Notes: generated from the letters alone by a model not told the origin. 64,000 nt of DNA from an uncultured Candidatus Saccharibacteria bacterium (GCA_964618905.1 CAZUDK010000002.1:482-64481), one strand, 5' to 3'; positions 23,740-47,674 are shown, counted from the stretch's first letter. Numbers and translations: made by a program.

Positions 23740-23745
23740 ATGTAG

Positions 23746-23870: not shown

Positions 23871-23943
23871 GGGCGATTAGCTCAGTTGGTAGAGCAATCC
23901 GTTTACACCGGAAAGGTCGGGGGTTCAAGTCCCTCATCGCCCA
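23871..23943 (+). tRNA. tRNA-Val (anticodon TAC)
   Basis: GGGCGATTAGCTCAGTTGGTAGAGC...anticodon loop TTTACAC...GGTTCAAGTCCCTCATCGCCCA. Confidence 0.85.
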
Positions 23944-24172: not shown

Positions 24173-24244
24173 GCTCCCGTAGTTAAATGGATATAACGAC
24201 TCCCTTCTAAGGAGTAGTTCTAGGTTCGATTCCTGGCGGGAGCA
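24173..24244 (+). tRNA. tRNA-Arg (anticodon TCT)
   Basis: GCTCCCGTAGTTAAATGGATATAAC...anticodon loop CTTCTAA...GGTTCGATTCCTGGCGGGAGCA. Confidence 0.85.
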
Positions 24245-24245
24245 C

Positions 24246-25435: not shown

Positions 25436-25472
25436 TATAAACTTGTCCTCTTTGGTAAATATATAAGGCTTT

Positions 25473-25555
25473 GCGCGGGTGTTGAAATTGGTAGACAAGC
25501 ATCCTTGAGGTGGATGTGCCCTTAGGGCGTGGAGGTTCAAGTCCTCTCCCGCGCA
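25473..25555 (+). tRNA. tRNA-Leu (anticodon GAG)
   Basis: GCGCGGG acceptor, D-loop AATTGGTAGAC, anticodon loop TTGAGGT, long variable arm. Confidence 0.8.
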
Positions 25556-25658
25556 CAAAAAACCGAGGGTTTTCGAGAAGTTCTAGTCCTCTACGTGACC
25601 AAGTCTTCTGATAATGATATAAAAGAATTCCCGCTAGGCTATAATTAGCTGGCAAGAT

Positions 25659-25731
25659 GGTGCCTATGGTGTAACGGTTAACACTCAAGTTTGTGGAACT
25701 TGCAATTCGGGTTCGATTCCCGGTAGGCACC
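25659..25731 (+). tRNA. tRNA-His (anticodon GTG) with encoded G-1
   Basis: G-1 pairs with discriminator C73; U8; D-stem GTGT/ACAC; anticodon loop TTGTGGA. Confidence 0.8.
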
Positions 25732-25735
25732 CAAG

Positions 25736-34906: not shown

Positions 34907-35806
34907 CTAGATGGCCACTGGGATACCCTTGATTCCCGGATGAGGCTTATAATCGGAAAGCTCGAAGTCATCCGGACGCATCTCGAAGATGTTTGTACTG
35001 TAGGTATTCAGCGTGAGTGTAGGAAGCTTGCGCGGCTCCCGCTTGAGCATCTCTTCCACGTACGGAATCTGGTCCACATAAATGTGGGCATCAGAGAAGC
35101 TGTGGATATACTTGTAGGGAATTGTTCCCGTGGCCCGAGCAAGTCCTAATAGAGCACCACCACCATACTGAATCATGTTCGCCGGTACTCCTACCGGAAA
35201 GTCAGCTGAACGCTGGAACATATGTAGCACGAGACGCATGCCAGGTAGGACACGGGCATGCATCCAGCCATGGCACGGAGCTACCACTGTCTTTTGCTGT
35301 TTGCCTCGTCCTCGCCCGATGTACTGGGGAATCCAGGGGGTCACGAAGTGGGTGCGAAGCTGGGGTTCATCGGTGATCTGCTCCACCAGATGTTGTATCT
35401 GGTTGAAAGGAGGACCTTCTCTGGTAGGGAAATTGTGGAAGGCTTCTCCATAAGCACCTAAGCCTCCGGTTCCCGTAGGAACACCGCGCTTCTGGCACTT
35501 TTTCTCAGTCCACCAATCTTTCCACCAGTTGCAGCCGAACTCCTCGAGTCCATCGAGAGAATTGACCCCATTAAAGAAAGCAAAAATCTCGCCCACTGCG
35601 GCTTTCCAAAACGGGATATTCCTCTCCGTGATGAGAGGAATGCCGTTCTCAAGAAGGAAGTGCATAGGCGGCGGAGCCATGTACGTTAGAGCAGGAACAC
35701 CTTGTTGGCTCTCTACTTCTTCTCCTTCTTCGAGAATGAGTCGGAGACAATCGCGATACTGCGTATCCGGCGTTCTCTCCTCGTACGGCTTGTAAGTGGG
35801 ATGCAT
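34907..35806 (-). CDS. Divergent thymidylate synthase-family enzyme (ThyA, or a ThyA-like pyrimidine hydroxymethylase)
   Basis: VAPCH nucleophile, QRSADFPVGVPANMIQY, C-terminal DYKPHPGIKGIPVAI match ThyA; regions equivalent to Arg21 and Arg126/127 diverge. Confidence 0.7.
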   Translation of the reverse strand: MHPTYKPYEERTPDTQYRDCLRLILEEGEEVESQQGVPALTYMAPPPMHFLLENGIPLITERNIPFWKAAVGEIFAFFNGVNSLDGLEEFGCNWWKDWWTEKKCQKRGVPTGTGGLGAYGEAFHNFPTREGPPFNQIQHLVEQITDEPQLRTHFVTPWIPQYIGRGRGKQQKTVVAPCHGWMHARVLPGMRLVLHMFQRSADFPVGVPANMIQYGGGALLGLARATGTIPYKYIHSFSDAHIYVDQIPYVEEMLKREPRKLPTLTLNTYSTNIFEMRPDDFELSDYKPHPGIKGIPVAI

Positions 35807-35917
35807 CTGTCATCCTTTCGTTGTCTGTTAGTTGTAAAGATCGTTGCCTGGCGCAATACTACGTATTTTGAGGCTTTTCTGCAATCAGGTATCATTAAGA
35901 TTAAGGAATATACAGTT

Positions 35918-36340
35918 ATGATTCTAAAGGTTAAAAAACTACATCCAGAAGCTAAGCTGCCAATTTTCGCCCATCCCGGAGATGCCGGCATGGACCTCTT
36001 CGCATTTGAGGATGTGGAGGTCCCAAGCGGCCGGTCAGCAAAGATCAGAGTCGGAATATCTCTTGAAATACCAGAAGGATATGTTGGCTTATGCTGGGAT
36101 AAGAGCGGACTATCAATGAACCACGGCATAAAAGTTCTTGGTGGGGTGATTGACTCTGGCTTTAGGGGCGAACTCGTTGTGGCAGTATTCAATCTTGGGC
36201 CAGAAAACTATACTTTTCATAAAGGCGACAAGGTTATGCAAATACTGATTCAAAAGGTGGAAAATCCGGAAATTGTTGAAGCAGAGGAACTTTCTGATTC
36301 AGCACGCGGAGAAAATGGCTTTGGCAGCACAGGAAAATGA
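35918..36340 (+). CDS. dut: dUTP diphosphatase
   Basis: Trimmed to the Met at MILKVKK (RBS aaggaata); GDAGMDL, GVIDSGFRGEL motifs. Confidence 0.85.
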   Translation: MILKVKKLHPEAKLPIFAHPGDAGMDLFAFEDVEVPSGRSAKIRVGISLEIPEGYVGLCWDKSGLSMNHGIKVLGGVIDSGFRGELVVAVFNLGPENYTFHKGDKVMQILIQKVENPEIVEAEELSDSARGENGFGSTGK

Positions 36341-37911
36341 TTAAGCAGCAAATCGAAAATTCAGTTAAGAACGCACTCTCCGAACTTGGACTAGGGGATA
36401 TGAATTTTGTGGTGGAACATCCGGCTCGCATAGAGTTTGGAGACTACTCTACGAATGCGGGTATTATTACAGGCAAGGGTGAGGAGATTGCAGAATATTT
36501 GAAATCGAATCTTCCAAAGGAAGTTGAAAGAGTGGAACTAAAGGGCGGCTTCATCAATTTCTTTCTGTCTAAAGAATTTTTCAAAAAGAGCATTGGAGAA
36601 ATTATTAAAAATGGAGAAAGTTTTGGGAAGAATGACAATCTAGAAGGCCAGAAAACAATCATTGAGTACACAGACCCGAATCCATTCAAGGAATTCCATA
36701 TCGGGCATTTGATGTCTAATGCTGTCGGCGAAGCTGTTTCAAGAATCATTGAGTGGAATGGAGCAGAGGTTAAGAGAGCCTGCTACCAGGGTGATGTGGG
36801 TATGCATGTAGCCAAAGCTGTGTGGGGAATGATGAAAGGGGAGAAAGATCCGTATGCCGCAGGCAACAGGGCATATGAAGATGATGAAGATGCGAAGAAA
36901 GAAATACAGCGAATAAACAAAGAAATATATGAAGGCGGAGGAGATGTAAAAGACCTTTGGGAGAGAGGGCGTCAGGAAAGTTTAGATGCTTTTGAAAAAA
37001 TATATAAAAAACTTGGAACAAAGTTTGATTACTTTTTCTTTGAATCAGAGACAGGAAAGGTTGGCCAGAAAATCGTCGAGGAGAATATTGGCAAGGTGTT
37101 TGAAGAATCTGACGGAGCAGTTGTTTTCAAGGCGGAGAAATATGACCCAAAACTTCATACCCGCGTTTTCATAAATTCAGAAGGCTTGCCGACATACGAA
37201 GCTAAAGAGCTTGGACTTGCACAGGTTAAGCACGAAAAATATCCGTACGATAAATCCATTGTAGTAACTGGCAATGAAGTAGATGGTTACTTTAAGGTTT
37301 TGCTTGAAGCGATGAAGCAAGTTCTGCCGAAGCTTGCAGAGAAGACAGAACATATCTCTCACGGCATGCTGCGTTTGCCGACAGGTAAGATGTCCTCGCG
37401 CACTGGAGATGTCATTACTGCTGAAGAACTCTTAGAGCAGGTTAAGGAGAAGACAGAAGGCAATGAGGAGGTTGCTATAGGAGCTATCAAGTATATGATC
37501 CTGCGTCAGGAAATTGGCGGAAATATAATTTTCGATATGGAAAAGTCTGTTTCGACAGAAGGAGACTCCGGAGTATATTTGCAATATGCATATGCAAGGT
37601 CTTGTTCGATTCTGGAGAAGGCAAACGGGCAGGCAGACCCAGAAGGTGTGAGAGAGAATGTGCAGAAGGTGGAAAAACTTTTATACAGATTTCCGGAAGT
37701 GGTCGAGAGGGCTATGCACGGCTTCTCGCCGAATTTAGTTACAACATATCTGACAGAGCTTGCAGGTGCTTTTAATAATTTTTATGCGCATGAGCAGGTC
37801 ATCGGCGATTCGCCGGAGGCGCTTTACCGCTTGGCGGTGGTGGAGGCTTTCAATAAGGTGATGAAGAACGGATTAGAGGTCCTGGGTATTCCAGCTCCTG
37901 AGAGAATATAA
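36337..37911 (+). CDS. argS: Arginine--tRNA ligase
   Basis: 524 aa; HIGH (FHIGHLMSNA), YLQYAYARSCSIL signature, DALR anticodon-binding domain. Confidence 0.9.
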   Translation: MIKQQIENSVKNALSELGLGDMNFVVEHPARIEFGDYSTNAGIITGKGEEIAEYLKSNLPKEVERVELKGGFINFFLSKEFFKKSIGEIIKNGESFGKNDNLEGQKTIIEYTDPNPFKEFHIGHLMSNAVGEAVSRIIEWNGAEVKRACYQGDVGMHVAKAVWGMMKGEKDPYAAGNRAYEDDEDAKKEIQRINKEIYEGGGDVKDLWERGRQESLDAFEKIYKKLGTKFDYFFFESETGKVGQKIVEENIGKVFEESDGAVVFKAEKYDPKLHTRVFINSEGLPTYEAKELGLAQVKHEKYPYDKSIVVTGNEVDGYFKVLLEAMKQVLPKLAEKTEHISHGMLRLPTGKMSSRTGDVITAEELLEQVKEKTEGNEEVAIGAIKYMILRQEIGGNIIFDMEKSVSTEGDSGVYLQYAYARSCSILEKANGQADPEGVRENVQKVEKLLYRFPEVVERAMHGFSPNLVTTYLTELAGAFNNFYAHEQVIGDSPEALYRLAVVEAFNKVMKNGLEVLGIPAPERI

Positions 37912-37989
37912 AGCTCAGCATTTACAATTAACTTTTATTATTGTAAAGTTCTGACAGAAATTGAACCCTTTCCCAACCTTGGAGGCATT

Positions 37990-38607
37990 ATGATCCTTAC
38001 CTTTAGTGGTCCATCCTGCGCAGGCAAGAGCACTATAATCAAGGCAGTATGCTGGCAGGACAAAAGCTTCCGAGTGCCGGTCTCATTCACCACTCGCCTC
38101 CTGATGGAAGGAGAGATAGAGGGGGATGACTACAATCATCGAACACGCGAGAGATTCGCTGATTTGGTAGGCGAGCGACATTTTGCAGAATGGGCAGAGC
38201 ATTTAGGGTATTTCTACGGTACCCCCAAGGATGCTATTGAAGAGATAATCAGTGCAGGGTATAACATTCTCATGGATCTCAACTGCAGTGGCGCCCGGCA
38301 AATCAAAATATTGTATCCGGATGCCGTGAGCTGCTTTATTCGTCCGCCGGACCTCGAAACGCTCGAGAGGCGCATAAGGAAAAGGCGGCGGGGAGAGAGT
38401 GAGGAAGACATCTGGAGAAGGCTGGCGATCGCCCGTAGCGAGATAGATCAGAGAGGGTGGTTCGATTACTGCATTACCAACGAAAAGTTGGAGGATGCGG
38501 TTGATGAAGTTCTTGCGGTCATCCAGAAGGTGCGGATTCGAGATGAACACGATGACATGGATGACTCTAGCAGAACGTCCCTGCCACGGATTCCTGGGTT
38601 CGTTTGA
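37990..38607 (+). CDS. Guanylate kinase-like nucleoside-monophosphate kinase
   Basis: P-loop GPSCAGKST, TTR...GE..G.DY; GC-rich (48-58%); acidic C-terminal tail. Confidence 0.65.
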   Translation: MILTFSGPSCAGKSTIIKAVCWQDKSFRVPVSFTTRLLMEGEIEGDDYNHRTRERFADLVGERHFAEWAEHLGYFYGTPKDAIEEIISAGYNILMDLNCSGARQIKILYPDAVSCFIRPPDLETLERRIRKRRRGESEEDIWRRLAIARSEIDQRGWFDYCITNEKLEDAVDEVLAVIQKVRIRDEHDDMDDSSRTSLPRIPGFV

Positions 38608-38609
38608 AT

Positions 38610-38650
38610 TAGCAGCCGGAGCGCATACGCGCTCCGGCTTTATGTTTCAG
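38610..38650 (+). terminator. Rho-independent terminator (agccggagcgc-atac-gcgctccggct + TTTATGTTT)
   Basis: Perfect 11-bp GC stem. Confidence 0.8.
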
Positions 38651-38700
38651 GTATACTCATAAGGTTTTGTAAAGAGGGTCTTAGTGCTAGGATATTCACC

Positions 38701-41700
38701 ATGAATGAAAAGTCTGACAGAGCCAAGAGGGAAGAGAAGATACTCTCTTTCTGGCAGGAAAAAAATATTTTCAAAAAAACTCTGGAGAAGGATGCTCCTA
38801 AGGGGGAATTTGTATTTTACGAAGGTCCGCCGACCGCAAACGGCCGGCCGGGCATTCACCACCTTGAAGCCCGTGCTTTCAAGGATGCTATCCCGCGATA
38901 CAAGACCATGCGCGGATATCATGTGCGCCGAAAGGCTGGCTGGGACACACATGGCTTGCCGGTAGAGCTTGAGGTTGAGAAACAGCTTGGCATAAGCTCA
39001 AAAAAACAAATTGAAGAGTATGGCATAGCCAAGTTCAATGAGGAGTGCAAGAAAAATGTCTGGAAGTATGTGGACGAATGGATAGACTTTACTAAGAGGA
39101 TAGGTTACTGGGTGGACTTTGACGATGCATACATTACTTACAAAAATCCGTACATAGAATCTGTCTGGAATGTGATCGCTCGTGCGGATGAAAGAGGTCT
39201 TCTATACAAGGATTATAAGGTGGTTCCGTGGTGTCCAAGGTGCGGTACTGCTCTTTCTTCACACGAGCTGGCGCAAGGATATGCAGATGTTAAAGATTTG
39301 TCTGTGTATGCAAAATTTAAAATTGTCGGATTCGATAACGCCTATTTCCTAGCATGGACTACTACACCATGGACTCTGCCGGGCAATGTCGCTCTGGCAG
39401 TCGGTGCAGACATCACATACGTTGAAGCTAAGGTTGGGGAAGATATCTTTGTCTTAGCTAAAGACAGGCTTTCAGTACTCGAAGAGTCATATGAGATAAT
39501 CGCTGAGCACAAGGGTTCGGAGATGGTCGGCATGGAGTACGAGCCTCTGTATCCTTTCCTTAAAGAAAATTATAAAGGCGAAGGCTTGGAGAAAGCATAT
39601 AAAGTTTACACAGCAGATTTTGTGAACACAGAAGATGGTACAGGCATTGTTCATACGGCTGTGATGTACGGCCAAGATGACTTTGCTCTTGGTACGAAAA
39701 TTGGCTTGCCAAAGTACCATTTAGTAGATGAATCCGGGCATTTTCTGCCAGAAGCAGGCTTCCTTGCAGGCAAGTTTGTAAAAGATGAAGAAACTGCCGT
39801 CGAGATCATTAAAGACTTGGCTCATAGAGGACTCTTCTTTAAGAAAGAGAAATATGAGCACTCGTATCCTCACTGTTGGAGGTGTAAGACGCCTCTTATC
39901 TACTATGCCCGAGATTCCTGGTATATCAGGATGTCTGAGCTCCGCGACAAGCTGGTAAGCGAAAACGAGAAAATAAATTGGGAGCCGAATTATATAAAAG
40001 AAGGCCGCTTCGGCGAGTGGCTTCGAGAGGTTAAAGATTGGGCGCTATCCCGTGAGCGCTACTGGGGCACGCCTTTGCCAGTATGGGAGTCCGAGACCAG
40101 TAAGAAAATCGTTGCCGGTTCCATAGAGACTCTTAAAAAGTATACAAAGAGATCTGACAACAAGTATTTTATGATGCGGCACGCTGAGGCCATGAGCAAC
40201 GCCAAGAATGTGCTCGATCCTCAAGGCGATCCGAACAATCATCTTACAGATAAGGGCAGAGCAGAGGCAGTCAGGACTTCAGAAGAACTGAAAGGCAAAG
40301 AAATAGAATTGATACTGACTTCTCCATTTATTCGCACTAAAGAGACAGCAGAGATAGTAAGGAAGGAACTAGGTTTGCCGAAAGAGAGTGTTGTGGTGGA
40401 TGATCGCTTGCACGAAGCCAATGAAAAAGACTTTAAGCTGGTGCGCAAGCGCCTGGGCGAATTCATTTACTGGCTAGACAAAAAATATTTGGGCAGAAAT
40501 ATTCTTATAGTGTCGCACGGAAATCCTCTCTGGGTTTTGGAGAGAATTTCAGACTGGAAAGACAGCGACAATTTCGAGGGGGATAAGATGCTTGCCACTG
40601 CTGAAGTTCGAGAGCTGAATTTTGCTCCCATGCCGCACAATGAAGATTATGAGCTTGATCTTCATAAGCCTTACATAGATGAAGTAGTGCTTGAGAAAGA
40701 CGGCGAAGAGTACAGGCGAACCAAGGAAGTCATGGATGTCTGGCTCGACTCAGGTTCAATGCCTTTCGCTCAGGACCATTATCCTTTCTCAGGCAAACTA
40801 ATGTATCCAGCAGACTTCATATCTGAAGCTATCGACCAGACACGCGGCTGGTTTTACACTCTGCATGCCGTTGGAATGATTATGGAGAGAGGTCATGCAT
40901 ACAACAATGTTATTTGCCTCGGCCACATACTTGATGCAGAAGGCAAGAAGATGTCTAAGTCTATCGGCAATGTGGTAAATCCGTGGGAGGCCATGGACAA
41001 ATACGGAGTGGATGTACTTCGCATGTGGATGTATTCGGTTAATCAGCCCGGAGAATCCAAGAACTTTGATGAACGCACTGTCGATGAGCTGAGCAAGCGA
41101 GTCTTTAATCTCTTAGACAACGTGTATGCGTTTTATGAAATGTACAAATTGCCGAATGATTCAAGCGAAGGAGATGGAGAAAAAGTTCATATTCTTGACA
41201 GGTGGATATTGGCTCGACTCAGCGAGTTGGTAGATTTCTCTTCTGAGATGCTGGATCAATATAAATTGCTTGAGCCAACGCGCGCCATGCGAGAGTTTAT
41301 TGATGATCTTTCTACGTGGTACTTGCGCCGCTCGAGAGATAGATTAAAAGAAGGGGATGCTGGCGCTAAGGAGACATTGCATCAAGTCCTTATTACTCTG
41401 TCTAAAATTTTAGCTCCTTTCGCTCCGTTTACGGCGGAAGAGTTGTATCGGAATCTTCGTGAGGAGGATGAACCAGAGAGTGTTCATCTTTGTGCCTGGC
41501 CTGAAGTGAAGCGTTCGCTCTTTTCTATGTTCAGAAAGGATGATTCTTCTAAAATTATTGAAGATATGAAGGAGGTGAGGAGGATTACAACCCTTGCCCT
41601 CAGTGAAAGGCAGAATGCGGGTATAAAAGTGCGTCAGCCGCTCGCTAAACTCGAAATTAAAAATTGGAAGCTTGGCAAAGAATATGAGGAAATCATCAAG

Positions 41701-41955
41701 GATGAGGTAAACGTCAAAGAAGTTTTAGAGAATCCTCAACTTGATACAGAGGTAAGACTCGATACCAGTATCACCCCCGAGCTTGAAGAAGAAGGAAAAA
41801 TGCGCGAAGTAATAAGGCGTATTCAGGATCTGCGCAAAGAAAAGAATCTGAATCCGGGCGAGACAATGGAGTATGATCTGCCGGAAGAAGAGAGAGAACT
41901 TTTTGCAAAATACAGAGAAGAAATAAAGAAAGCTACAAATATAGAATTAAAGTGA
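38701..41955 (+). CDS. ileS: Isoleucine--tRNA ligase with an inserted histidine-phosphatase (PGAM-like) domain
   Basis: 1084 aa; editing-domain TTTPWTLPGN, WCPRCGT, KMSKS, DVWLDSGS; inserted block YFMMRHAE...LTDKGRAEA...ILTSPFIRTKETAEIV...IVSHGN at about aa 490-620. Confidence 0.85.
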   Translation: MNEKSDRAKREEKILSFWQEKNIFKKTLEKDAPKGEFVFYEGPPTANGRPGIHHLEARAFKDAIPRYKTMRGYHVRRKAGWDTHGLPVELEVEKQLGISSKKQIEEYGIAKFNEECKKNVWKYVDEWIDFTKRIGYWVDFDDAYITYKNPYIESVWNVIARADERGLLYKDYKVVPWCPRCGTALSSHELAQGYADVKDLSVYAKFKIVGFDNAYFLAWTTTPWTLPGNVALAVGADITYVEAKVGEDIFVLAKDRLSVLEESYEIIAEHKGSEMVGMEYEPLYPFLKENYKGEGLEKAYKVYTADFVNTEDGTGIVHTAVMYGQDDFALGTKIGLPKYHLVDESGHFLPEAGFLAGKFVKDEETAVEIIKDLAHRGLFFKKEKYEHSYPHCWRCKTPLIYYARDSWYIRMSELRDKLVSENEKINWEPNYIKEGRFGEWLREVKDWALSRERYWGTPLPVWESETSKKIVAGSIETLKKYTKRSDNKYFMMRHAEAMSNAKNVLDPQGDPNNHLTDKGRAEAVRTSEELKGKEIELILTSPFIRTKETAEIVRKELGLPKESVVVDDRLHEANEKDFKLVRKRLGEFIYWLDKKYLGRNILIVSHGNPLWVLERISDWKDSDNFEGDKMLATAEVRELNFAPMPHNEDYELDLHKPYIDEVVLEKDGEEYRRTKEVMDVWLDSGSMPFAQDHYPFSGKLMYPADFISEAIDQTRGWFYTLHAVGMIMERGHAYNNVICLGHILDAEGKKMSKSIGNVVNPWEAMDKYGVDVLRMWMYSVNQPGESKNFDERTVDELSKRVFNLLDNVYAFYEMYKLPNDSSEGDGEKVHILDRWILARLSELVDFSSEMLDQYKLLEPTRAMREFIDDLSTWYLRRSRDRLKEGDAGAKETLHQVLITLSKILAPFAPFTAEELYRNLREEDEPESVHLCAWPEVKRSLFSMFRKDDSSKIIEDMKEVRRITTLALSERQNAGIKVRQPLAKLEIKNWKLGKEYEEIIKDEVNVKEVLENPQLDTEVRLDTSITPELEEEGKMREVIRRIQDLRKEKNLNPGETMEYDLPEEERELFAKYREEIKKATNIELK
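40160..40565 (+). other. In-frame histidine-phosphatase (phosphoglycerate-mutase/SixA-like) domain inside ileS
   Basis: RHAE (RHG), LTDKG..QA-type, SHG motifs in order; continuous reading frame. Confidence 0.7.
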
Positions 41956-41988
41956 GGTTGCCAATTACAAGATTGAAAATTAATTCCC

Positions 41989-42501
41989 GTGTCTTATCAC
42001 ATATACACTACGGATGCCTTGGTGCTGTCGCATAGACCATTGCGAGAAGCCGACAGGATATATTCGATACTTACAAGAGACTTTGGACTCATTCAAGCTT
42101 CAGCGTCAGGTGTGCGTAAGGAGCAGTCAAAATTGAGAGGTTCTCTTGAGCCTTTTTCATTTTCCAAAATGTCGCTTGTGAAGGGTAAAGAATATTGGCG
42201 CATTACGAACGCTGTTTTTGAAAGATATGCAGATAAACATTTTGCCGCTCCTTTTGCACTTCTAGAGAAGCTTATGGCAGGGGAGAGTGAACATTCCGAG
42301 CTTTTTGGCGATATTGAGGAAGAGATACGTCATTATAGTGTGTCAGATGAATTGGCTGAAGCTCGCATGGTTTCAAAAATGCTTTTCCATCTTGGTTATA
42401 TGGAATATGAGGATCTTAACCTAGATAAAAAAGACTTAGTTAAGGCAATAAATAAAGGCATAAAGGCGAGCGGATTGGCAGATCAGAGGGTTTATAACTG
42501 A
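41989..42501 (+). CDS. recO: RecO-like recombination mediator (N-terminal OB domain only, truncated)
   Basis: 170 aa; DALVLSHRPLREADRIYSILTRDFGLIQASASGVRKEQSKLRGSLEPFS aligns with the RecO N-terminus; no zinc-finger C-terminus. Confidence 0.5.
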   Translation: MSYHIYTTDALVLSHRPLREADRIYSILTRDFGLIQASASGVRKEQSKLRGSLEPFSFSKMSLVKGKEYWRITNAVFERYADKHFAAPFALLEKLMAGESEHSELFGDIEEEIRHYSVSDELAEARMVSKMLFHLGYMEYEDLNLDKKDLVKAINKGIKASGLADQRVYN

Positions 42502-42564
42502 CGCTAAAATCAGCTCAGCCAATAAATTATTTAAAGAAATTTTACTAAATGTTACAATGATGCG

Positions 42565-44019
42565 ATGAACGGTGAAGAAAAGAGCAGTGTAGAAAAATTA
42601 AAGGAGAAGCTTTATTCTCGCACGAGATACAAGAAGCCGACCGATCAGCGTTCAAATATTGAACAGCCTGAAGACAGGCCTCAAGTAGCAGAAAAGTGGG
42701 ATACGCCGGAACTTGATGAGATGCTTCAGCATGACAGGCGCCTGCCTGAACCTTATCCAATCATGAAAAAAATTTTTGTATTTGCTCTATTGTTCTTCAT
42801 AGGAACTTTAGCTATAACAGCCTTTATCTTTCTGGGCGGTTCAAACTTTATCTCTTCCAAGAATGTGGATATAAGCGTATCCGGGCCAGCATCTATCAGC
42901 GCAGGAGATGTGCTGGAGCTCGGCATTACGATATCGAACAAAAATAATGCCGATCTGCAGGTAGCAAATTTGTCTATTCAGTATCCTCAAGGCAGTCATG
43001 AGGCCGATAATCCAGAACATGCCATTACTTATGTAAGGGAAGAGCTTGGAGCTATAGGTTCCGGAGATGAGTTGAATAAAATCGAGAGAGTTATCCTCTT
43101 CGGCGAAGAAGGTGAGGTCAAGCAGATTAAAATATCAGTAGAGTATAGAATAAGCGGCTCGAACGCTACTTTCTATAAAGATAAGATATACGAAATAACC
43201 ATTGGCGAACCTCCGTTAACCATGATTATTGATCAGCCTGACTCAGTGAATTCCGGAGACGCTTTTAATACCAATGTTACAGTTTCTTCTGCTTCAACCG
43301 AAGTGCTTAGGAACGTGGTTGTGAAGGCTGATTATCCTCCTGGCTATTCTCTGATATCTTCGCAGCCGCAACCCCTGACCGGCGAAAATTTCTGGTCTCT
43401 TGGAGACATGCCGCCGGGCAGTGAAAAGACTTTGACTCTCAAAGGCCACTTGCTCGGAGAAAATCAGGAGAAAAGAACTTTTCACTTCACTGTCGGTGTA
43501 GGAGATCCGGGCCTAAGCGGCATCATACTTGGTGCAGACCTTGTTTCTTTATCCGATACGGTCAGCATAGCAAGGCCGTCCGTCAGTTTGTCTTTGGCGC
43601 TGGATGGCGATGAGAGTTTTGAACACAATTTAAAGGCAGGTGATTTTGTTTCTGCGGATATTCGTGTACGTAACAATCTTTCAGACAAAATAGTCGGACC
43701 GAAGCTTGTAGTGCATCTTTCGGGAACAGCACTTGATGAAAATTCTGTTTCTTCATCAGGCGGTGTATATGATAGACAAAACAATACTATTACTTGGAAT
43801 CTTGTGAATTTGTTTGGACAGCCGGAGATTCTGCCCGGTGCTGACGGAGAAGTTAATCTCAGATTCAGGTCGCTTGAAGACGCCGGTGAGCCGGCAGGAG
43901 AAATTAATATAGAAGTTTCCTTCAGCGGTCGGTCCGTGGGTGAAATTTCAAGGGAGATCGGCTCTGAACTGGAAAGACTCATAAAAGTCTCAGCCGAAAC
44001 AGGTTTCCAGCCTGAGTAA
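42565..44019 (+). CDS. Membrane-anchored surface protein with repeated β-sandwich (CARDB/DUF11-like) domains
   Basis: Cytoplasmic N-terminus, one TM (FVFALLFFIGTLAITAFIFLGG), then repeated Ig-like segments. Confidence 0.45.
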   Translation: MNGEEKSSVEKLKEKLYSRTRYKKPTDQRSNIEQPEDRPQVAEKWDTPELDEMLQHDRRLPEPYPIMKKIFVFALLFFIGTLAITAFIFLGGSNFISSKNVDISVSGPASISAGDVLELGITISNKNNADLQVANLSIQYPQGSHEADNPEHAITYVREELGAIGSGDELNKIERVILFGEEGEVKQIKISVEYRISGSNATFYKDKIYEITIGEPPLTMIIDQPDSVNSGDAFNTNVTVSSASTEVLRNVVVKADYPPGYSLISSQPQPLTGENFWSLGDMPPGSEKTLTLKGHLLGENQEKRTFHFTVGVGDPGLSGIILGADLVSLSDTVSIARPSVSLSLALDGDESFEHNLKAGDFVSADIRVRNNLSDKIVGPKLVVHLSGTALDENSVSSSGGVYDRQNNTITWNLVNLFGQPEILPGADGEVNLRFRSLEDAGEPAGEINIEVSFSGRSVGEISREIGSELERLIKVSAETGFQPE

Positions 44020-44054
44020 AGAACTTTGTTCGGAAAGCTGCTACAATACTGGCA

Positions 44055-45227
44055 ATGTCGGAAAAAGACCCTGAATTAATGGAAAAAATCGTCTCTCTCG
44101 CCAAGAGGCGGGGATTCGTGTATCAAAACTCAGAGATATATGGAGGCTTCGCTGGTTTTTGGAATTATGGGCACTACGGCTCGATTCTCAAGGAAAATAT
44201 AAAAAACTTATGGAAACGTAGATTTGTCTTTGATCGGGATGATGTATTCATCATTGATACTTCCATTATTTCCAATCCTAAAGTTCTTGAAGCTTCCGGC
44301 CATGTTTCCACTTTTGGCAATGAAATCTTCAAAACAGAAGTTGGTACTGGTGAAGATGCGGCAGTTTCTCATCTGCGTCCTGAGACAGCGCAAGGTATCT
44401 TCGTAGATTTTAAGAATGTGGTTGATGTGCATCATCCCCAGCTGCCTTTTGGTGTGGCGCAGATAGGAAAATCTTTCCGTAATGAAATTGCACCAAGAGA
44501 TTTTATTTTCCGTTCACGTGAGTTTGAACAGATGGAGGTTGAATACTTTGTACGACCGGAGAATTGGGGGGCATCCTTTGAAGAATGGCACGGCGTAATT
44601 CATGCTTTTGCGAAAGAGATCGGTATTCCTAAGGAACATTTGTATGATCTGGAAGTACCTGATGATGAAAGAGCTCACTATTCTAAGCGCACCATAGATT
44701 TTGAATTTGATTATCCATTCGGCAGAAAAGAGCTATGGGGTCTTGCTTATCGAACTGATTTTGACCTAAAGAATCATAATCTGGATTATTTTGATGAAAA
44801 GACAGGGGAGAGAATCGTGCCTCATGTCATAGAACCATCGCTCGGCGTGGACCGAACGTTTCTTGCGGTTTTGGTATCTGCATATACAGAAGATGAAATG
44901 GCTGGCGAGAAAAGAAGCTATTTGAAGCTTCCTAAAAATATTGCTCCTGTAAGAGCAGCAGTATTTCCTCTTCTTAAAAATAAGCCTGAGCTCGTATCAA
45001 AGGCCAGGGAAGTATACGAAATGCTGAAAAAGGATATTCCGAATGTCGTTTGGGATGACAACGGCAACATAGGCAAGCGCTACAGAAGGCAGGATGAGAT
45101 CGGCACTCCTCACTGCATAACTATAGATTTCGATACTCTTGAAGATGGCACAGTAACAGTCCGCGACAGAGATACTGGCGACCAGAAAAGAATCAAAATA
45201 GAAGATTTGAAAGAAGTGCTTTCCTGA
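44055..45227 (+). CDS. glyS: Glycine--tRNA ligase (alpha2 type), short
   Basis: EIYGGFAGFWNYGHYG, motif 2 FRNEIAPRDFIFRSREFEQME. Confidence 0.7.
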   Translation: MSEKDPELMEKIVSLAKRRGFVYQNSEIYGGFAGFWNYGHYGSILKENIKNLWKRRFVFDRDDVFIIDTSIISNPKVLEASGHVSTFGNEIFKTEVGTGEDAAVSHLRPETAQGIFVDFKNVVDVHHPQLPFGVAQIGKSFRNEIAPRDFIFRSREFEQMEVEYFVRPENWGASFEEWHGVIHAFAKEIGIPKEHLYDLEVPDDERAHYSKRTIDFEFDYPFGRKELWGLAYRTDFDLKNHNLDYFDEKTGERIVPHVIEPSLGVDRTFLAVLVSAYTEDEMAGEKRSYLKLPKNIAPVRAAVFPLLKNKPELVSKAREVYEMLKKDIPNVVWDDNGNIGKRYRRQDEIGTPHCITIDFDTLEDGTVTVRDRDTGDQKRIKIEDLKEVLS

Positions 45228-45243
45228 TGTATTCTAAGCCTTC

Positions 45244-46512
45244 ATGAAATACAAGAAAACAACTCTGCCAAACGGCCTTAGGATAATTACTGTTCCTACA
45301 AATGATAATCCGTCTGTAACAGTGATGGTGCTTGCAGAAACCGGATCAAATTATGAGTCCAAATCACAAAACGGACTCTCTCATTTCCTCGAACACATGC
45401 TGTTTAAAGGCACAGCCAAACGCCCGACATTTATGGATATAGCCCTCGACCTTGAAAATATAGGTGCAGAGAGCAACGCTTTCACTTCCAACGAATATAC
45501 TGGATATTATGCTAAGGCGGAGAAAAGGCATTTCGACAAGCTTTTGGATGTCGTGTCGGATATGTATTTAAATCCATCTTTTCCGGAAGCCACTTTGGAG
45601 AAAGAGCGCGGAGTTATCCTGCAAGAAATCAGCATGTATGAAGACTTGCCTAAGCAAAAGGTTTGGAGTGTGCTTCAAGAGCTTTTGTACGGAGACTCTC
45701 CAGCCGGCCGAACAATTTTAGGTCCAAAGGAAAATATAAAGAATTTTTCCAGAAAAGATTTTGTGAAATATAGGGACTCACATTACATTGCCGAGAAGAC
45801 TATTGTTGTTATATCGGGTGATGTTGAAAACAGGGAAGCTGTTAAGAGTGTAAAGAATTATTTCAAAAACATTCCTTCCGGCAAGAAGCTTTCAAAAGCA
45901 AAGGTTGTCGAGAAGCAGAAGGCTCCGGCTCTCAGTATTTTAAAGAAGAAGACTGACCAAACGCATCTTGTTCTTGCATTCAGGGGATACAAGGCAAGCG
46001 ACAAGAGATCTACTACCTTGCTCTTGCTCGCCTATATTATGGGTAAGGGATTTTCTTCGAGATTGTTCCAGAAAATGAGGGAAGAGATGGGAGCTTGCTA
46101 TTATGTCAGCTCAGAAGTAGATGAGTACACTGATCATGGAACATTTGTCATTCCGGCCGGCATTGAATCTAAAAGAATTGGAGAAGTGATCAAGGCTCTA
46201 TTAGGAGAATGTCAAAAATTTATAGATAAAGAAGTGCCTGAAGAAGAATTGGATAAGGCTAAGGAGTATTGCATCGGCAGGCTGTACATGAATCTTGAGA
46301 CAAGCGATGCTCTGGCGAGCTTCTATGCAGATCAAGAAGTTGCCGCCTCTGTCCTCAAGACTCCAAAGGAAATAGAAAAAGAGATCCGTTCTATAACAGC
46401 CAAGGATATAAAAAAGGTTGCCAAGGACGTCTTTAAGAATGAGAATCTTAATCTGGCTATTATTGGAGATATAAAAGATCAGTCAAGGATCAAGAAGATT
46501 CTTCATTTCTAG
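45244..46512 (+). CDS. M16-family (pitrilysin/insulinase-like) zinc peptidase
   Basis: HFLEHMLFKGT (HxxEH). Confidence 0.8.
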   Translation: MKYKKTTLPNGLRIITVPTNDNPSVTVMVLAETGSNYESKSQNGLSHFLEHMLFKGTAKRPTFMDIALDLENIGAESNAFTSNEYTGYYAKAEKRHFDKLLDVVSDMYLNPSFPEATLEKERGVILQEISMYEDLPKQKVWSVLQELLYGDSPAGRTILGPKENIKNFSRKDFVKYRDSHYIAEKTIVVISGDVENREAVKSVKNYFKNIPSGKKLSKAKVVEKQKAPALSILKKKTDQTHLVLAFRGYKASDKRSTTLLLLAYIMGKGFSSRLFQKMREEMGACYYVSSEVDEYTDHGTFVIPAGIESKRIGEVIKALLGECQKFIDKEVPEEELDKAKEYCIGRLYMNLETSDALASFYADQEVAASVLKTPKEIEKEIRSITAKDIKKVAKDVFKNENLNLAIIGDIKDQSRIKKILHF

Positions 46513-46607
46513 CGCTCTTATCTCTAGAGTGCTATCATGGGGCTAATGAATCCTTAAGCCATATTATGCTTGGGGAAGCAGGCATTTAATTTAATGTCTA
46601 TTGTCTA

Positions 46608-47672
46608 ATGAATGAAGGAAAACAACTGGATATATCCTTTGTCAGCTGGTTTCGAGCAGCTTTGGTTGTGCTTTTGATAGTAGCCCTTTTTGTCCTCAGA
46701 GATTTATTGCTGGTCATTTTAACTTCAGTTGTTATAGCTTCTGCTATTGAACCTGCTTCAGCATGGGCCAAGAAACGAAAAATTCCGCGTCTTCCAACTG
46801 TAATATTTGTTTATGCATTTTCCAGCTTAATGCTGGCAGGCATATTTTACTTCCTGCTACTGCCGCTGCTTGGTGAAGTTTCCAGCTTCATCAGAGAATT
46901 ACCCGGTCTTTCCGCAGTTCCAAATGCTACCTCTACTTTTTCTGCACCTTCTGCCTCCGGAATTTTCTCGAATTTTAAGGCGCCGGTTTCTATAAGCGAA
47001 GCAACCAGCTATCTCAATTCATTTGCTGATTCGATATCTCAAGGTGTCTTCTCCAGCGTCTCATTGGTTTTCGGTGGAGTTTTGTCACTGGTTCTTATAG
47101 TCGTTCTCTCGTTTTATCTTGCGGTTCAAGAAGACGGTGTCAGCAAGTTCTTAAAAATAATTTCTCCATTCAAACATGAGAAATACATCATTGATGTATG
47201 GAAGCGATCTCAGAGAAAAATAGGTCTTTGGATGCAAGGTCAGATACTTCTCGGCGTGCTTGTGGCTGTTATAACCTACTTAGGTCTTGTGCTTATCGGC
47301 GTAGATAATGCTCTTCTTCTGGCTGTTCTCTCAGGTATATTCGAACTTATTCCGCTTTTCGGTCCGGTACTTGCTGCTATTCCGGCTATGTTCGTAGCTT
47401 TTGCCGGCGGCGGCATGTCCGAGCTCCTGTTGGTTGCCGGCTTGTATCTGATCATTCAGCAATTTGAAAATCATTTGTTATATCCTTTGGTAGTGAAGAA
47501 AGTTGTCGGCGTGCCGCCGCTGGTTTCTATAATCGCTCTTATTGTAGGCGGGCAGCTTGCCGGCTTCTTGGGCATACTAATTTCGGTACCTGTCGCTACA
47601 GCTATCATGGAGCTTTTGTCTGATTTTGAGAAGCAGAAAAGCGCTAAATCCTCTCTGTCTGAATCTGCCTAA
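46608..47672 (+). CDS. AI-2E family transporter (PerM/UPF0118)
   Basis: 354 aa, about 8 TM, typical AI-2E topology. Confidence 0.7.
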   Translation: MNEGKQLDISFVSWFRAALVVLLIVALFVLRDLLLVILTSVVIASAIEPASAWAKKRKIPRLPTVIFVYAFSSLMLAGIFYFLLLPLLGEVSSFIRELPGLSAVPNATSTFSAPSASGIFSNFKAPVSISEATSYLNSFADSISQGVFSSVSLVFGGVLSLVLIVVLSFYLAVQEDGVSKFLKIISPFKHEKYIIDVWKRSQRKIGLWMQGQILLGVLVAVITYLGLVLIGVDNALLLAVLSGIFELIPLFGPVLAAIPAMFVAFAGGGMSELLLVAGLYLIIQQFENHLLYPLVVKKVVGVPPLVSIIALIVGGQLAGFLGILISVPVATAIMELLSDFEKQKSAKSSLSESA

Positions 47673-47674
47673 AT

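What the first reader, a model, noticed from the sequence alone, without database searches (positions are those of the whole stretch)
40160..40565. Isoleucyl-tRNA synthetase with an in-frame histidine-phosphatase (PGAM/SixA-like) domain insertion
The 1084-aa IleRS (editing motif TTTPWTLPGN, KMSKS, DVWLDSGS) carries an extra block of about 130 aa between the PLPVW segment and the DVWLDSG motif. That block shows the ordered signature of the histidine-phosphatase superfamily. RHAE matches the catalytic RHG; LTDKGRAEA matches the LT.kG..QA loop; ILTSPFIRTKETAEIV matches the SPL.RA.QTA helix; IVSHGN matches the SHG proton donor. The reading frame is continuous, so this is a domain fusion and not a separate gene. 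I know of no described aminoacyl-tRNA synthetase with such an insertion. A phosphatase or phosphotransfer module inside a synthetase could couple aminoacylation or editing to a phospho-signal, or dephosphorylate a nucleotide or 2',3'-cyclic-phosphate tRNA end.
Basis: partly seen in the sequence, partly recalled or inferred. Interest (0 to 1): 0.75.

Follow-up and report, generated by a model that had tools for sequence, protein, structure and literature searches.

The report
Phosphatase domain nested inside isoleucyl-tRNA synthetase
The isoleucyl-tRNA synthetase of this candidate-phyla-radiation bacterium carries a complete, apparently active histidine phosphatase spliced into one of its surface loops; hundreds of related species share this arrangement, sister lineages keep the same phosphatase as a separate gene directly in front of the synthetase gene, and its substrate is unknown.

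Summary
Confirmed and extended. ORF 38701-41955 is one continuous 1084-aa type-2 IleRS. Relative to P. megaterium IleRS2 it has a clean 161-aa insertion (aa 483-643, nt 40147-40629) in the CP2 zinc-knuckle hairpin.

The insert is a histidine phosphatase, branch 1:
- Pfam PF00300, E 1e-19, 71 bits against a cutoff of 21.7.
- AF2 domain model pLDDT 92, with Foldseek TM about 0.8 to PhoE, PspA, RosC and GpgP.

It is not an artefact or a one-off. At least 571 GTDB species of Parcubacteria/Paceibacteria encode it, and the 80 best loci all have it embedded in ileS. In 268 distinct embedded domains the catalytic set R493/H494/R545/E572/H606 is essentially invariant, while the median column is 46% conserved.

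New finding: in sister CPR lineages the same phosphatase is a stand-alone gene of about 190 aa immediately upstream of an insert-less ileS (8 of 8 examined, two with overlapping stop/start). Relatives also carry tandem or second-site phosphatase copies.

I conclude it is an active phosphatase genetically partnered with IleRS. The substrate is unknown. No description was found in the searchable literature. It is closer to PhoE/CobC than to SixA, and the proton donor is E572, not the SHG histidine.

The parts
38701..41955 (+). ileS::His_Phos_1 gene, 1084 aa, a single continuous ORF
   Evidence: TIGR00392 scores 883.5 bits. Pfam finds tRNA-synt_1, His_Phos_1, Anticodon_1 and DUF5915.
38851..38862 (+). 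Class I signature motif in its non-canonical form, GIHH (aa 51-54; GXHH type)
   Evidence: The motif class is described in PMC10485003. H53 is invariant and H54 is at least 90% conserved in 42 homologues.
39358..39387 (+). CP1 editing-domain motif TTTPWTLPGN (aa 220-229)
   Evidence: T220-N229 are invariant in 42 homologues.
40072..40146 (+). CP2 hairpin, N-side flank (PLPVW...IETLKKYT, aa 458-482). The CxxC zinc-knuckle cysteines are lost here.
   Evidence: P. megaterium IleRS2, the split-form IleRSs and a few fused relatives keep CxxC at this position.
40147..40629 (+). Inserted histidine phosphatase domain (aa 483-643), short form lacking the cap segment of about 35 aa
   Evidence: Boundaries. 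Pfam PF00300. AF2 domain model pLDDT 91.9, pTM 0.88. Foldseek TMq 0.76-0.83 to RosC, HFP, PhoE, GpgP and PspA. Cap deletion seen in the alignment, and domain length is bimodal across species.
40177..40185 (+). RHA motif: R493, nucleophile H494, and A495 in place of the usual G
   Evidence: In 268 embedded domains: R in 267, H in 268; at 495, G in 252 and A in 13.
40333..40335 (+). R545 (SPFIRT), the second phosphate-pocket arginine
   Evidence: R in 267 of 268; invariant.
40414..40416 (+). E572 (RLHE), the predicted general acid/proton donor
   Evidence: E in 260 and D in 7 of 268. It aligns to the RLRE motif of PhoE.
40516..40518 (+). H606 (VSHGN), the second pocket histidine
   Evidence: H in 266 of 268; the other two are truncated sequences.
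40630..40758 (+). CP2 hairpin, C-side flank through DVWLDSGS (aa 644-686). The second pair of zinc-knuckle cysteines is lost.
   Evidence: D653, H655, P657 and D660 are invariant.
40948..40962 (+). KMSKS loop (aa 750-754)
   Evidence: K750-K753 are invariant and S754 is at least 90% conserved.
36337..37911 (+). argS, the conserved upstream syntenic neighbour
   Evidence: The same synteny is seen.
37990..38607 (+). Guanylate kinase gene, sitting in the slot where split-form genomes carry the stand-alone phosphatase gene
   Evidence: (TIGR03263 172.9 bits against a cutoff of 160.45).
41989..42501 (+). recO, the conserved downstream syntenic neighbour
   Evidence: Synteny.

Best explanation
**What it is.** The gene encodes the cell's type-2 (GXHH-class) IleRS. 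A whole histidine-phosphatase gene (PF00300 branch 1, PhoE/CobC/PspA-like) has been inserted in frame at the tip of its CP2 zinc-knuckle hairpin.

**Chemistry (inferred from the family).** The domain is a working phosphomonoesterase. H494 attacks the phosphate to form a phospho-histidine. R493, R545 and H606 hold the phosphate. E572 protonates the leaving group.

**Partnership with IleRS (shown genetically).** The phosphatase is a dedicated partner of IleRS in this branch of the candidate phyla radiation. In some lineages it is a separate gene of about 190 aa directly upstream of ileS, often translationally coupled to it. In the Parcubacteria/Paceibacteria lineage of the window it sits inside IleRS.

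**Function (inferred, not shown).** I infer that it acts on a phosphate ester connected with the IleRS-tRNA-nucleotide system. Candidates are a phosphorylated tRNA end or a nucleotide product or by-product, rather than an unrelated metabolite. Insertion at CP2 fixes it next to the catalytic/editing body.

**Status of each step.**
- Shown: insertion, fold, catalytic-residue conservation, distribution, split/fused gene pairing.
- Inferred: enzymatic activity, physical or functional coupling, substrate class.
For: **Identity and fold**
-.

**Insertion point**
- Exact insertion point in CP2: together with the HUP boundaries 40-168/513-632 given in PMC10485003.

**Selection for catalysis**
- In 268 non-identical embedded domains the five catalytic residues are 97-100% conserved, against a median column conservation of 0.46.
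- The insert is 33-60% identical among homologues whose whole proteins are 62-71% identical.

**Breadth**
- All 120 top homologues are fused.
- 165 representatives of 50%-identity clusters have E<=1e-30.
- At least 571 GTDB species encode a relative, and the best 80 are all embedded in ileS.

**Partnership with ileS**
- 8 of 8 stand-alone phosphatases scoring at least 146 bits to the insert profile lie immediately upstream of an insert-less ileS.
- The pair persists even where the argS adjacency is broken. In L091 and L093 the stop and start overlap by 4 nt.
- A weaker relative (130 bits) is not next to ileS.
- Fused genomes lack a phosphatase gene in that slot.
- The stand-alone protein corresponds end to end to the insert: NNKYYVLRHGE...GEIKELN versus DNKYFMMRHAE...AEVRELNF.

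**Where and how often it is attached**
- An end-to-end N-terminal fusion would be the easiest route, needing only loss of a stop codon. It is not seen. In all 165 full-length fused proteins the domain sits at the CP2 site.
- Repeated accretion on IleRS: tandem copies (P0254, P0189) and a second copy at a second loop (P0231, P0183).

**Charge**
- Stand-alone partners are unusually basic: median pI 9.9 and net charge +16, against -1 to -2 for embedded domains and -5 for other relatives (Mann-Whitney p=4e-10).
- This fits polyanion (RNA) binding that becomes unnecessary once the domain is tethered.
Against: - No substrate is identified and no activity was measured.
- The nearest characterised relatives (PhoE, PspA, CobC, RosC, GpgP) are all small-molecule phosphatases. 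SixA and PGAM5-type macromolecule phosphatases rank lower.
- No histidine phosphatase is known to act on RNA ends (my own knowledge).
- A tRNAIle-only repair function has no obvious rationale.
- The domain's orientation relative to the IleRS active sites could not be read from the model, because no coordinates or PAE were available.
- β1 runs from the junction to the RHA motif. By inference, the active site therefore lies at the end of the domain distal to the hairpin.
- The basic charge of stand-alone forms is not universal: P0277 is -1, P0301 is -10, P0336 is 0. It may partly reflect Lys-rich proteomes.
- Conserved adjacency in tiny, translation-gene-rich CPR operons can arise without direct functional coupling.
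- The trees are NJ only and poorly resolved.
Confidence: 0.5

Rival explanations
1. Housekeeping small-molecule phosphatase with no mechanistic link to aminoacylation. A broad-specificity PhoE/GpmB/PspA-type enzyme happened to sit in the argS-ileS operon. It was captured in a permissive surface loop of IleRS, and the fusion only guarantees co-expression and stability in a streamlined genome.
For: - The best sequence and fold matches are small-molecule phosphatases, and NCBIfam hits are to dPGM_arch, CobC and PspA.
- Long forms and stand-alone forms keep the cap subdomain typical of metabolite phosphatases.
- IleRS loops in this clade also accept unrelated domains: a P-loop kinase-like domain in P0192 and an HD domain in P0084. 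This suggests the scaffold tolerates insertions generally.
- CPR genomes are compact, with conserved translation-gene clusters.
Against: - The pairing is with ileS specifically. It survives loss of the argS adjacency, and two pairs have overlapping stop/start.
- The domain is never seen as the trivial N-terminal fusion. It is always at CP2, with additional copies again on IleRS.
- The cap that defines metabolite specificity is deleted in about 45% of fused species, apparently repeatedly, while the catalytic core stays invariant.
- Stand-alone partners are often extremely basic, up to +34 net charge in 188 aa.
Confidence: 0.3
2. Protein phosphatase (SixA/PGAM5/Sts-like). The domain removes phospho-His/Ser/Thr from IleRS itself or from a partner. 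One example would be reversing inactivating phosphorylation of the synthetase by a HipA-type toxin kinase. Another would be linking translation to a phosphorelay.
For: - The window's short form lacks the cap, so the pocket should be open as in SixA.
- SixA and PGAM5 are among the significant fold matches (ranks 29-50).
- One split locus has a response-regulator/HATPase_c gene directly upstream of the phosphatase (L093).
- From my own knowledge, HipA-family kinases do target aaRSs.
Against: - SixA membership fails (40.3 bits against 74.5; 30.8 bits in PDB against 94 for PhoE).
- The ancestral and stand-alone forms are capped.
- No kinase is conserved in the neighbourhood.
Confidence: 0.1
3. Catalytically dead structural module. 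The domain merely replaces the zinc knuckle as a rigid cap of the CP2 hairpin, or adds a tRNA-contact surface.
For: - Most fused IleRSs, including the window, have lost the four knuckle cysteines that split forms keep.
- The window has RHA instead of RHG.
Against: - The catalytic pentad is near-invariant in 268 sequences while the rest of the domain drifts. A scaffold would not need it.
- Ala at the G position occurs in only 13 of 268 and is a conservative change.
Confidence: 0.05
4. Artefact: a frameshift, chimeric assembly or mis-joined contig makes two genes look like one.
For: None was found. The only formal basis is that the window comes from a metagenome-type assembly.
Against: - The ORF is continuous.
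- An identical protein exists in NCBI (P0004).
- 80 of 80 independent GTDB genomes and all 165 full-length proteins show the same nested architecture at the same site.
- The IleRS halves flank the insert exactly.
- GC content matches the rest of the gene.
Confidence: 0.01

Closest known systems
Bacterial type-2 IleRS (P. megaterium IleRS2, PDB 8C8U-8C9D; T. thermophilus IleRS, 1ILE)
   Same: - Alignable end to end (823 and 756 bits).
- Shares the PPTANG...HH signature region, the CP1 editing domain, KMSKS and the Anticodon_1 + DUF5915 C-terminus.
- Shares the first zinc site (C178/C181/C392/C395, invariant).
- The GXHH motif equals the engineered or natural hyper-mupirocin-resistant form (PMC10485003).
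   Different: - A 161-aa phosphatase is inserted at chain residue 478, inside the second CxxC...CxxC knuckle of CP2.
- The knuckle cysteines are lost in the window.
PhoE/YhfR broad-specificity phosphatase (1EBB/1H2E) and its relatives PspA (4IJ5), CobC (6NRU, 6E4B), RosC (9EMU), HFP (9MMH) and GpgP (4PZ9)
   Same: - Same α/β histidine-phosphatase fold (TMq 0.76-0.83).
- Best sequence matches in the PDB (94 to 70 bits).
- Same RHG...R...E...H catalytic constellation.
   Different: - Here the domain is nested in another enzyme.
- All NCBIfam equivalog cutoffs are missed by a wide margin.
- The window's copy has deleted the cap subdomain that shapes the substrate pocket.
CP1 editing domain of class Ia synthetases, and other accessory catalytic modules on aaRSs (e.g. 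NCBIfam NF040702, 'IleRS, N-acetyltransferase domain-containing')
   Same: - A second catalytic domain is nested in or appended to the synthetase polypeptide.
- aaRS Rossmann folds are known hosts for insertions (PMC13114784).
   Different: - The inserted chemistry is phosphomonoester hydrolysis, which has no known role in aminoacylation or editing.
- The window matches NF040702 only through its IleRS part (340.7 bits against a cutoff of 1999).
Bifunctional RNase H/acid phosphatase (Rv2228c type, NCBIfam NF005567) and PFK-2/FBPase-2
   Same: - A branch-1 histidine phosphatase is fused to a nucleic-acid enzyme (RNase H) or to a P-loop kinase.
- The relative P0192 carries both a phosphatase and a P-loop kinase-like insert.
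   Different: - Those are end-to-end fusions, not loop insertions.
- Scores are far below the family cutoffs (39.4 bits against 326).
SixA phosphohistidine phosphatase
   Same: - Minimal size, and no cap in the window's short form.
- Same superfamily (rank 50).
   Different: - TIGR00249 scores 40.3 bits against a cutoff of 74.5.
- The ancestral long and stand-alone forms are capped, PhoE-like proteins.

Membership tests
Isoleucyl-tRNA synthetase (class Ia, type 2) | Equivalog HMM TIGR00392 above its curated cutoff | tested here: met
   883.5 bits against a cutoff of 621.4.
Isoleucyl-tRNA synthetase (class Ia, type 2) | Class I signature motifs HIGH (or its GXHH variant) and KMSKS | tested here: met
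   GIHH at aa 51-54 and KMSKS at aa 750-754. Both are conserved in 42 homologues. The GXHH variant is documented for IleRS2 in PMC10485003.
Isoleucyl-tRNA synthetase (class Ia, type 2) | CP1 editing domain with the Thr-rich motif | tested here: met
   TTTPWTLPGN at aa 220-229 is invariant. The editing-domain PDB chains 1WK8 and 1UE0 match aa 193-391.
Isoleucyl-tRNA synthetase (class Ia, type 2) | Type-2 C-terminal region (helical anticodon-binding domain plus DUF5915; no C-terminal zinc-binding domain) | tested here: met
   PF08264 at aa 833-981 and PF19302 at aa 1017-1079. The best PDB matches are IleRS2 structures.
Isoleucyl-tRNA synthetase (class Ia, type 2) | Ile-tRNAIle synthesis and Val editing activity | not testable with these tools
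   Needs biochemistry.
Histidine phosphatase superfamily, branch 1 (PF00300) | Pfam model above its gathering score | tested here: met
   71.1 bits against 21.7, E 1.3e-19.
Histidine phosphatase superfamily, branch 1 (PF00300) | RHG motif with the nucleophilic histidine after β1 | tested here: met
   R493-H494-A495. In 268 embedded domains H is present in 268 and R in 267. The G position is A in the window and in 12 others.
Histidine phosphatase superfamily, branch 1 (PF00300) | Second Arg and second His of the phosphate pocket, plus an acidic proton donor | tested here: met
   R545 in 267 of 268; H606 in 266 of 268; E572 as E in 260 and D in 7. These align with the PhoE catalytic residues.
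Histidine phosphatase superfamily, branch 1 (PF00300) | α/β fold of the superfamily | tested here: met
   AF2 domain model pLDDT 91.9. Foldseek gives 302 PDB matches at E<=1e-3, and all 50 top matches shown are histidine-phosphatase-fold proteins, TMq up to 0.83.
Histidine phosphatase superfamily, branch 1 (PF00300) | Phosphatase (or mutase) activity via a phospho-histidine intermediate | not testable with these tools
   Inferred only from residue conservation.
SixA phosphohistidine phosphatase | TIGR00249 equivalog cutoff | tested here: not met
   40.3 bits against 74.5. PDB 1UJB scores 30.8 bits against 94 for PhoE.
Cofactor-dependent phosphoglycerate mutase (dPGM) | dPGM equivalog models above cutoff | tested here: not met
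   dPGM_arch scores 57.9 against 225, and the other gpm models score at most 32 bits against 261-320. Only the N-terminal half aligns.
PhoE / CobC / PspA-type capped small-molecule phosphatases | Equivalog cutoffs, and presence of the cap subdomain between the catalytic Glu and the second His | tested here: not met
   ribazole_cobC scores 31.8 against 162.9, and PspA scores 37.5 against 350. The cap segment of about 35 aa is deleted in the window, though present in long-form relatives. This is the closest family by similarity but not a member by the curated criteria.
Mupirocin-hyper-resistant IleRS2 (GXHH class) | G/A-X-H-H in place of H-X-G-H | tested here: met
   GIHH in the window. Among fused PPTAN-type homologues, 89 have GxHH and 43 have AxHH.
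Mupirocin-hyper-resistant IleRS2 (GXHH class) | Millimolar Ki for mupirocin | not testable with these tools
   Needs an enzyme assay.

The most novel reading that the evidence does not exclude
The phosphatase is a third catalytic site of the synthetase and acts on RNA. It would remove a blocking 2'/3'-phosphate (or pyrophosphate) from the A76 end of tRNAIle, or another RNA-linked phosphate, so that damaged or toxin-modified tRNA can be recharged. Stand-alone versions would bind tRNA through their own highly basic surface, while fused versions borrow IleRS's tRNA grip. This would be the first synthetase with built-in tRNA end-healing, and the first RNA-directed branch-1 histidine phosphatase.
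Probability: 0.2. Interest if true: 0.9.

Novelty: new variant of a known kind. Interest (0 to 1): 0.68.

Why it matters
Aminoacyl-tRNA synthetases are among the best-studied enzymes. Their accessory domains have repeatedly revealed new biology, such as editing, signalling and resistance.

Here a phosphatase with an intact catalytic centre is tied to IleRS in two genetic formats, neighbour gene and nested domain. This holds across hundreds of species of the candidate phyla radiation, whose biology is largely unknown and which cannot be cultured alone. No phosphomonoester is part of the textbook aminoacylation or editing cycle. So either there is an unrecognised phosphate-dependent step or quality control around tRNAIle charging in these organisms, or this is a clear natural example of a neighbour gene being transplanted into a permissive loop of an essential enzyme.

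Both readings can be tested directly with recombinant protein. The split/fused pair gives a ready-made control, and the CP2 hairpin is identified as an insertion-tolerant site for engineering class I synthetases.

Tried and rejected
**Searches with limited or no yield**
- Word-indexed search with the insert alone found only three stand-alone proteins, because of word-sharing limits. The full-length search, the exhaustive search and the profile search were needed.
- Exact look-up of the window's protein found no contig on record.
- The afdb50 fold library was unavailable, so I could not list UniProt/AFDB entries with this architecture.
- Rfam found no T-box or other leader upstream of ileS, only tRNAs.

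**Things I could not determine**
- Inter-domain geometry (distance from H494 to the synthetic and editing sites or the tRNA path). The structure tool returns no coordinates or PAE.
- The origin of each insert. The NJ tree of phosphatase domains is poorly resolved and contaminated by split HMM envelopes of short forms, so I draw no conclusion about independent origins from it.
- Polarity and number of fusion events. The NJ tree of IleRS cores places the one PFATG-type split form (L001) inside a fused clade. This is suggestive of more than one fusion or fission event, but it is not robust.
- Zinc-knuckle retention. My regular expression failed there, so retention and loss were read from alignments instead.
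- Specific families for the extra domains in relatives. The P-loop domain of P0192 and the HD domain of P0084 matched only weakly: APS kinase, shikimate kinase and Pnkp1 at E of 0.02-0.06, and HDIG below cutoff.

**Readings considered and rejected**
- Recent horizontal acquisition: GC and GC3 of the insert match the host gene.
- A second phosphatase gene in the window: none in any of the six frames.
- SixA or dPGM membership: curated cutoffs are not met.
Full report
**1.
- The window has one uninterrupted ORF at 38701..41955 (+) of 1084 aa.
- It is an isoleucyl-tRNA synthetase: NCBIfam TIGR00392 scores 883.5 bits against a cutoff of 621.4.
- Pfam finds tRNA-synt_1, Anticodon_1 and DUF5915, which is the type-2 C-terminus.
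- Between the two halves of the synthetase, Pfam finds PF00300 His_Phos_1. The whole protein gives E=1.3e-19 and 71.1 bits against a gathering score of 21.7. Residues 471-670 alone give E=1.7e-21. That is far beyond chance.

**2. Exact anatomy of the insertion.**
- The best solved relative is Priestia megaterium IleRS2 (8C8W, 823 bits), followed by T. thermophilus IleRS (1ILE). In the alignment, query residues 482 and 644 both abut chain residue 478.
- The insertion is therefore a clean 161 aa, aa 483-643 (nt 40147-40629). Nothing from the host is deleted.
- In PmIleRS2 the catalytic HUP core is residues 40-168 and 513-632 (PMC10485003). Position 478 therefore lies in the CP2 connective peptide.
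- More precisely, it lies at the tip of a hairpin closed by a CxxC...CxxC zinc knuckle: 'WECEGC...TCPVC' in PmIleRS2.
- A few fused relatives keep these cysteines (P0061, P0068, P0084, P0086, P0098, P0115). The window and most others have lost them.
- The first zinc site (C178, C181, C392, C395) is invariant.
- The class I signature is GIHH. This is the non-canonical GXHH form that confers mupirocin hyper-resistance on IleRS2.
- The editing motif and KMSKS are intact and invariant. This looks like the cell's working IleRS.

**3. The insert is a folded histidine phosphatase that appears active.**
- AlphaFold2 on a 42-sequence alignment gives pLDDT 84.9 and pTM 0.75 for the whole protein, with the insert at pLDDT of roughly 80-95.
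- The domain alone gives pLDDT 91.9 and pTM 0.88.
- Foldseek against the PDB returns only histidine-phosphatase folds at the top: RosC, HFP 9MMH, PhoE 1H2E, GpgP and PspA, with TMq 0.76-0.83. SixA appears only at rank 50.
- A profile of 22 inserts matches PhoE best (94 bits), then PspA, then CobC. SixA scores 31 bits.
- No NCBIfam equivalog cutoff is reached for dPGM, SixA, CobC or PspA.
- By the family's established mechanism, H494 is the nucleophile, R493/R545/H606 form the phosphate pocket, and E572 (RLHE) is the proton donor.
- In 268 non-identical IleRS-embedded domains, R493 is kept in 267, H494 in 268, R545 in 267 and H606 in 266. E572 is E in 260 and D in 7. The median column keeps its commonest residue in only 46% of sequences.
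- The insert is 33-60% identical among homologues whose whole proteins are 62-71% identical. It evolves faster than the synthetase core, but its catalytic centre is frozen.
- The window has RHA rather than RHG, which is a minority state (13 of 268).

**4. It is a lineage trait, not a curiosity of one genome.**
- All 120 best full-length homologues (59-68% identity, 1051-1302 aa) carry PF00133 plus PF00300. They are named Zambryskibacteria, Nomurabacteria, Paceibacterota, Minisyncoccia or Parcubacteria.
- An exhaustive HMMER scan of 1.84 billion cluster representatives with the junction-plus-insert query found 165 representatives at E<=1e-30.
The 80 best loci all have the domain embedded in the IleRS ORF. 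Their names add Adler-, Taylor-, Kaiser-, Vogel- and Campbellbacteria.
- NCBI taxonomy places these groups in the Parcubacteria group of Patescibacteria.
- Domain length is bimodal. A long form of 188-211 aa has the usual cap segment. A short form of 146-162 aa, which includes the window, has about 35 aa deleted between E572 and the helix preceding H606.
- On a rough NJ tree the short form appears many times.
- The fused architecture occurs in two IleRS2 subtypes: PPTAN...G/AxHH (132 sequences) and PFATG...HxGH (about 24). Both carry it at the same site and with the same 'PHNxxxELDLH' C-side linker.

**5. The new finding: the same phosphatase is the upstream neighbour of ileS in sister lineages.**
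- Searching with the insert profile, the best stand-alone hits are PF00300 proteins of about 180-220 aa from Patescibacteria, scoring 146-189 bits.
- I looked up the genomic context of eight of them: P0277, P0279, P0314, P0294, P0320, P0301, P0323 and P0336.
- All eight lie immediately upstream of an IleRS of 935-995 aa that has no insert, and are co-directional with it.
- The surrounding synteny matches the window's: smpB | ... argS - HP - ileS - (x) - recO - DUF11/CLIPPER protein - class II aaRS. The window has thyA, dut, argS, gmk, ileS::HP, recO, a DUF11 protein and a class II aaRS.
- Fused relatives L009 and L010 have argS followed by ileS::HP, with no phosphatase gene in the slot.
- In L091 and L093 other genes separate argS from the pair, yet HP and ileS stay together with a 4-nt stop/start overlap. 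The tie is therefore to ileS, not argS.
- A weaker relative (P0344, 130 bits) is not next to ileS.
- The stand-alone protein corresponds to the insert from end to end: 'NNKYYVLRHGE...GEIKELN' versus 'DNKYFMMRHAE...AEVRELNF', at 33-37% identity. A whole gene's worth of protein was nested.
- The split-form IleRSs are only 35-44% identical to the window's. They fall into two further subtypes, and they keep the zinc-knuckle cysteines.

**6. Further accretion on IleRS in relatives.**
- P0254 has two tandem phosphatase domains in CP2, and the fragment P0189 has four.
- P0231 and P0183 have a second copy in the loop just before the anticodon-binding domain. That loop is disordered in the window's model (aa 820-827).
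- P0192 has a P-loop kinase-like domain in the loop after DxWFESGS.
- P0084 has a C-terminal HD domain.
- In all 165 full-length fused proteins the first phosphatase domain is at the CP2 site. None is a simple N-terminal fusion, although that would only need loss of a stop codon.

**7. A charge contrast between stand-alone and embedded forms.**
- The 65 best stand-alone relatives have median pI 9.9 and net charge +16. One example, P0279, is +34 in 188 aa.
- Embedded domains are near neutral (net -1 to -2), and weaker stand-alone relatives are acidic (net -5). The difference gives Mann-Whitney p=4e-10.
- The excess charge lies mainly in the N-terminal core.
- The neighbouring IleRSs are not acidic in those genomes. 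Attraction to a polyanion such as tRNA therefore fits better than attraction to IleRS.
- The trait is not universal, and Lys-rich proteomes may contribute. I treat it as suggestive only.

**8. Interpretation.**
- Shown: a complete branch-1 histidine phosphatase is nested in CP2 of a type-2 IleRS. Its catalytic centre is under strong purifying selection. The architecture is ancient and widespread in Parcubacteria/Paceibacteria. The same phosphatase is a dedicated upstream gene partner of ileS in sister lineages.
- Inferred: the domain is an active phosphomonoesterase, and it works with IleRS. This is classic Rosetta-stone logic, reinforced by translational coupling, by site-specific nesting instead of trivial end fusion, and by repeated duplication on the same host.
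- I put about 0.5 on a real functional coupling. The substrate would then most plausibly be a phosphate ester on tRNA or on a nucleotide product or by-product.
- I put about 0.3 on a housekeeping metabolite phosphatase that is merely co-expressed. Its closest characterised relatives are all small-molecule enzymes.
- I put about 0.1 on a protein-phosphatase role, about 0.05 on a dead scaffold replacing the zinc knuckle, and about 0.01 on an artefact.
- I could not measure how the phosphatase active site faces the synthetase, because model coordinates are not exposed.
- From the secondary structure, β1 (aa 488-493) runs from the junction to the RHA motif. The active site is therefore probably at the end of the domain distal to the hairpin.

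**9. Novelty.**
- Full-text searches combining IleRS or aaRS with histidine phosphatase, CPR or Parcubacteria found no description.
- A 2026 survey of 96,219 IleRS sequences with annotated domain architectures does not mention a phosphatase.
- A 2026 catalogue of domain insertions mentions only editing domains for aaRSs.
- NCBI has a curated model for 'IleRS with GNAT domain' but none for this architecture.
- The proteins are public, but annotated simply as IleRS or 'class I tRNA ligase family protein'.
- I therefore rate it a new variant of a known kind: a synthetase with an accessory catalytic module. It is undescribed as far as the accessible literature shows, and the library searched covers open-access papers and bioRxiv only.

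Noticed in passing
window 38851-38862 (aa 51-54): The IleRS signature motif is GIHH, the non-canonical GXHH form reported to give IleRS2 hyper-resistance to mupirocin. Among fused PPTAN-type homologues, 89 have GxHH and 43 have AxHH.
   Followed up: partly
window 40087-40146 and 40690-40722; compare L001-L007 ileS: The second zinc knuckle of CP2 (CxxC...CxxC) is lost in the window and in most fused IleRSs. It is retained in every split-form IleRS examined and in a few fused ones. The phosphatase may have taken over the structural role of the zinc.
   Followed up: partly
relatives P0254, P0189, P0231, P0183, P0192, P0084: IleRSs of this clade carry further accretions: two to four tandem phosphatase domains, a second phosphatase at a second loop before the anticodon-binding domain, a P-loop kinase-like insert after DxWFESGS, and a C-terminal HD domain. 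P0084 also has a degenerate signature region ('KPVLHTM').
   Followed up: partly
stand-alone phosphatases P0274-P0342 (e.g. L002 5001-5567): The ileS-linked stand-alone phosphatases are unusually basic (median pI 9.9, net charge up to +34 in 188 aa). Embedded domains are near neutral.
   Followed up: partly
window 37990-38639: A bona fide guanylate kinase gene occupies the argS-ileS slot where split-form genomes have the phosphatase gene. It is followed by a strong terminator-like hairpin (11 pairs, 9 of them G-C) at 38614-38639, so ileS may have its own promoter.
   Followed up: partly
window 34907-49096: This stretch is dense with synthetase and nucleotide-metabolism genes: thyA (-), dut, argS, gmk, ileS::HP, recO, a DUF11 protein, a short (390 aa) class II aaRS with tRNA-synt_2b and HGTP_anticodon, an M16 peptidase, an AI-2E transporter, and a 473-aa MetRS-like class I enzyme. 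The order is conserved in L009 and L010.
   Followed up: partly
window 16574-25732: There is a cluster of eight tRNA genes according to ARAGORN. Rfam at the gathering threshold lists seven of them; tRNA-Leu(gag) at 25473-25556 is missing from the Rfam list. No tRNA-Ile is in the window.
   Followed up: no
L031 (JBASWV010000014.1, 3257 bp); many CAY*/CAZ* contigs in L012-L090: One fused-IleRS contig is binned in a 'Candidatus Nitrosotenuis' (archaeal) MAG, which is probably mis-binning. Many TPA assemblies carrying this Parcubacteria-type gene are labelled 'uncultured Candidatus Saccharibacteria', which looks like a generic CPR label.
   Followed up: no
L093 1702-4017; L091 576-3755; L002 2725-3154: Various genes are inserted upstream of the HP-ileS pair in split genomes: an HD-domain protein plus a response-regulator/HATPase_c protein (L093), a restriction-modification set with AIPR, a D12 methyltransferase and DpnI (L091), and a HicA toxin pair (L002).
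   Followed up: no
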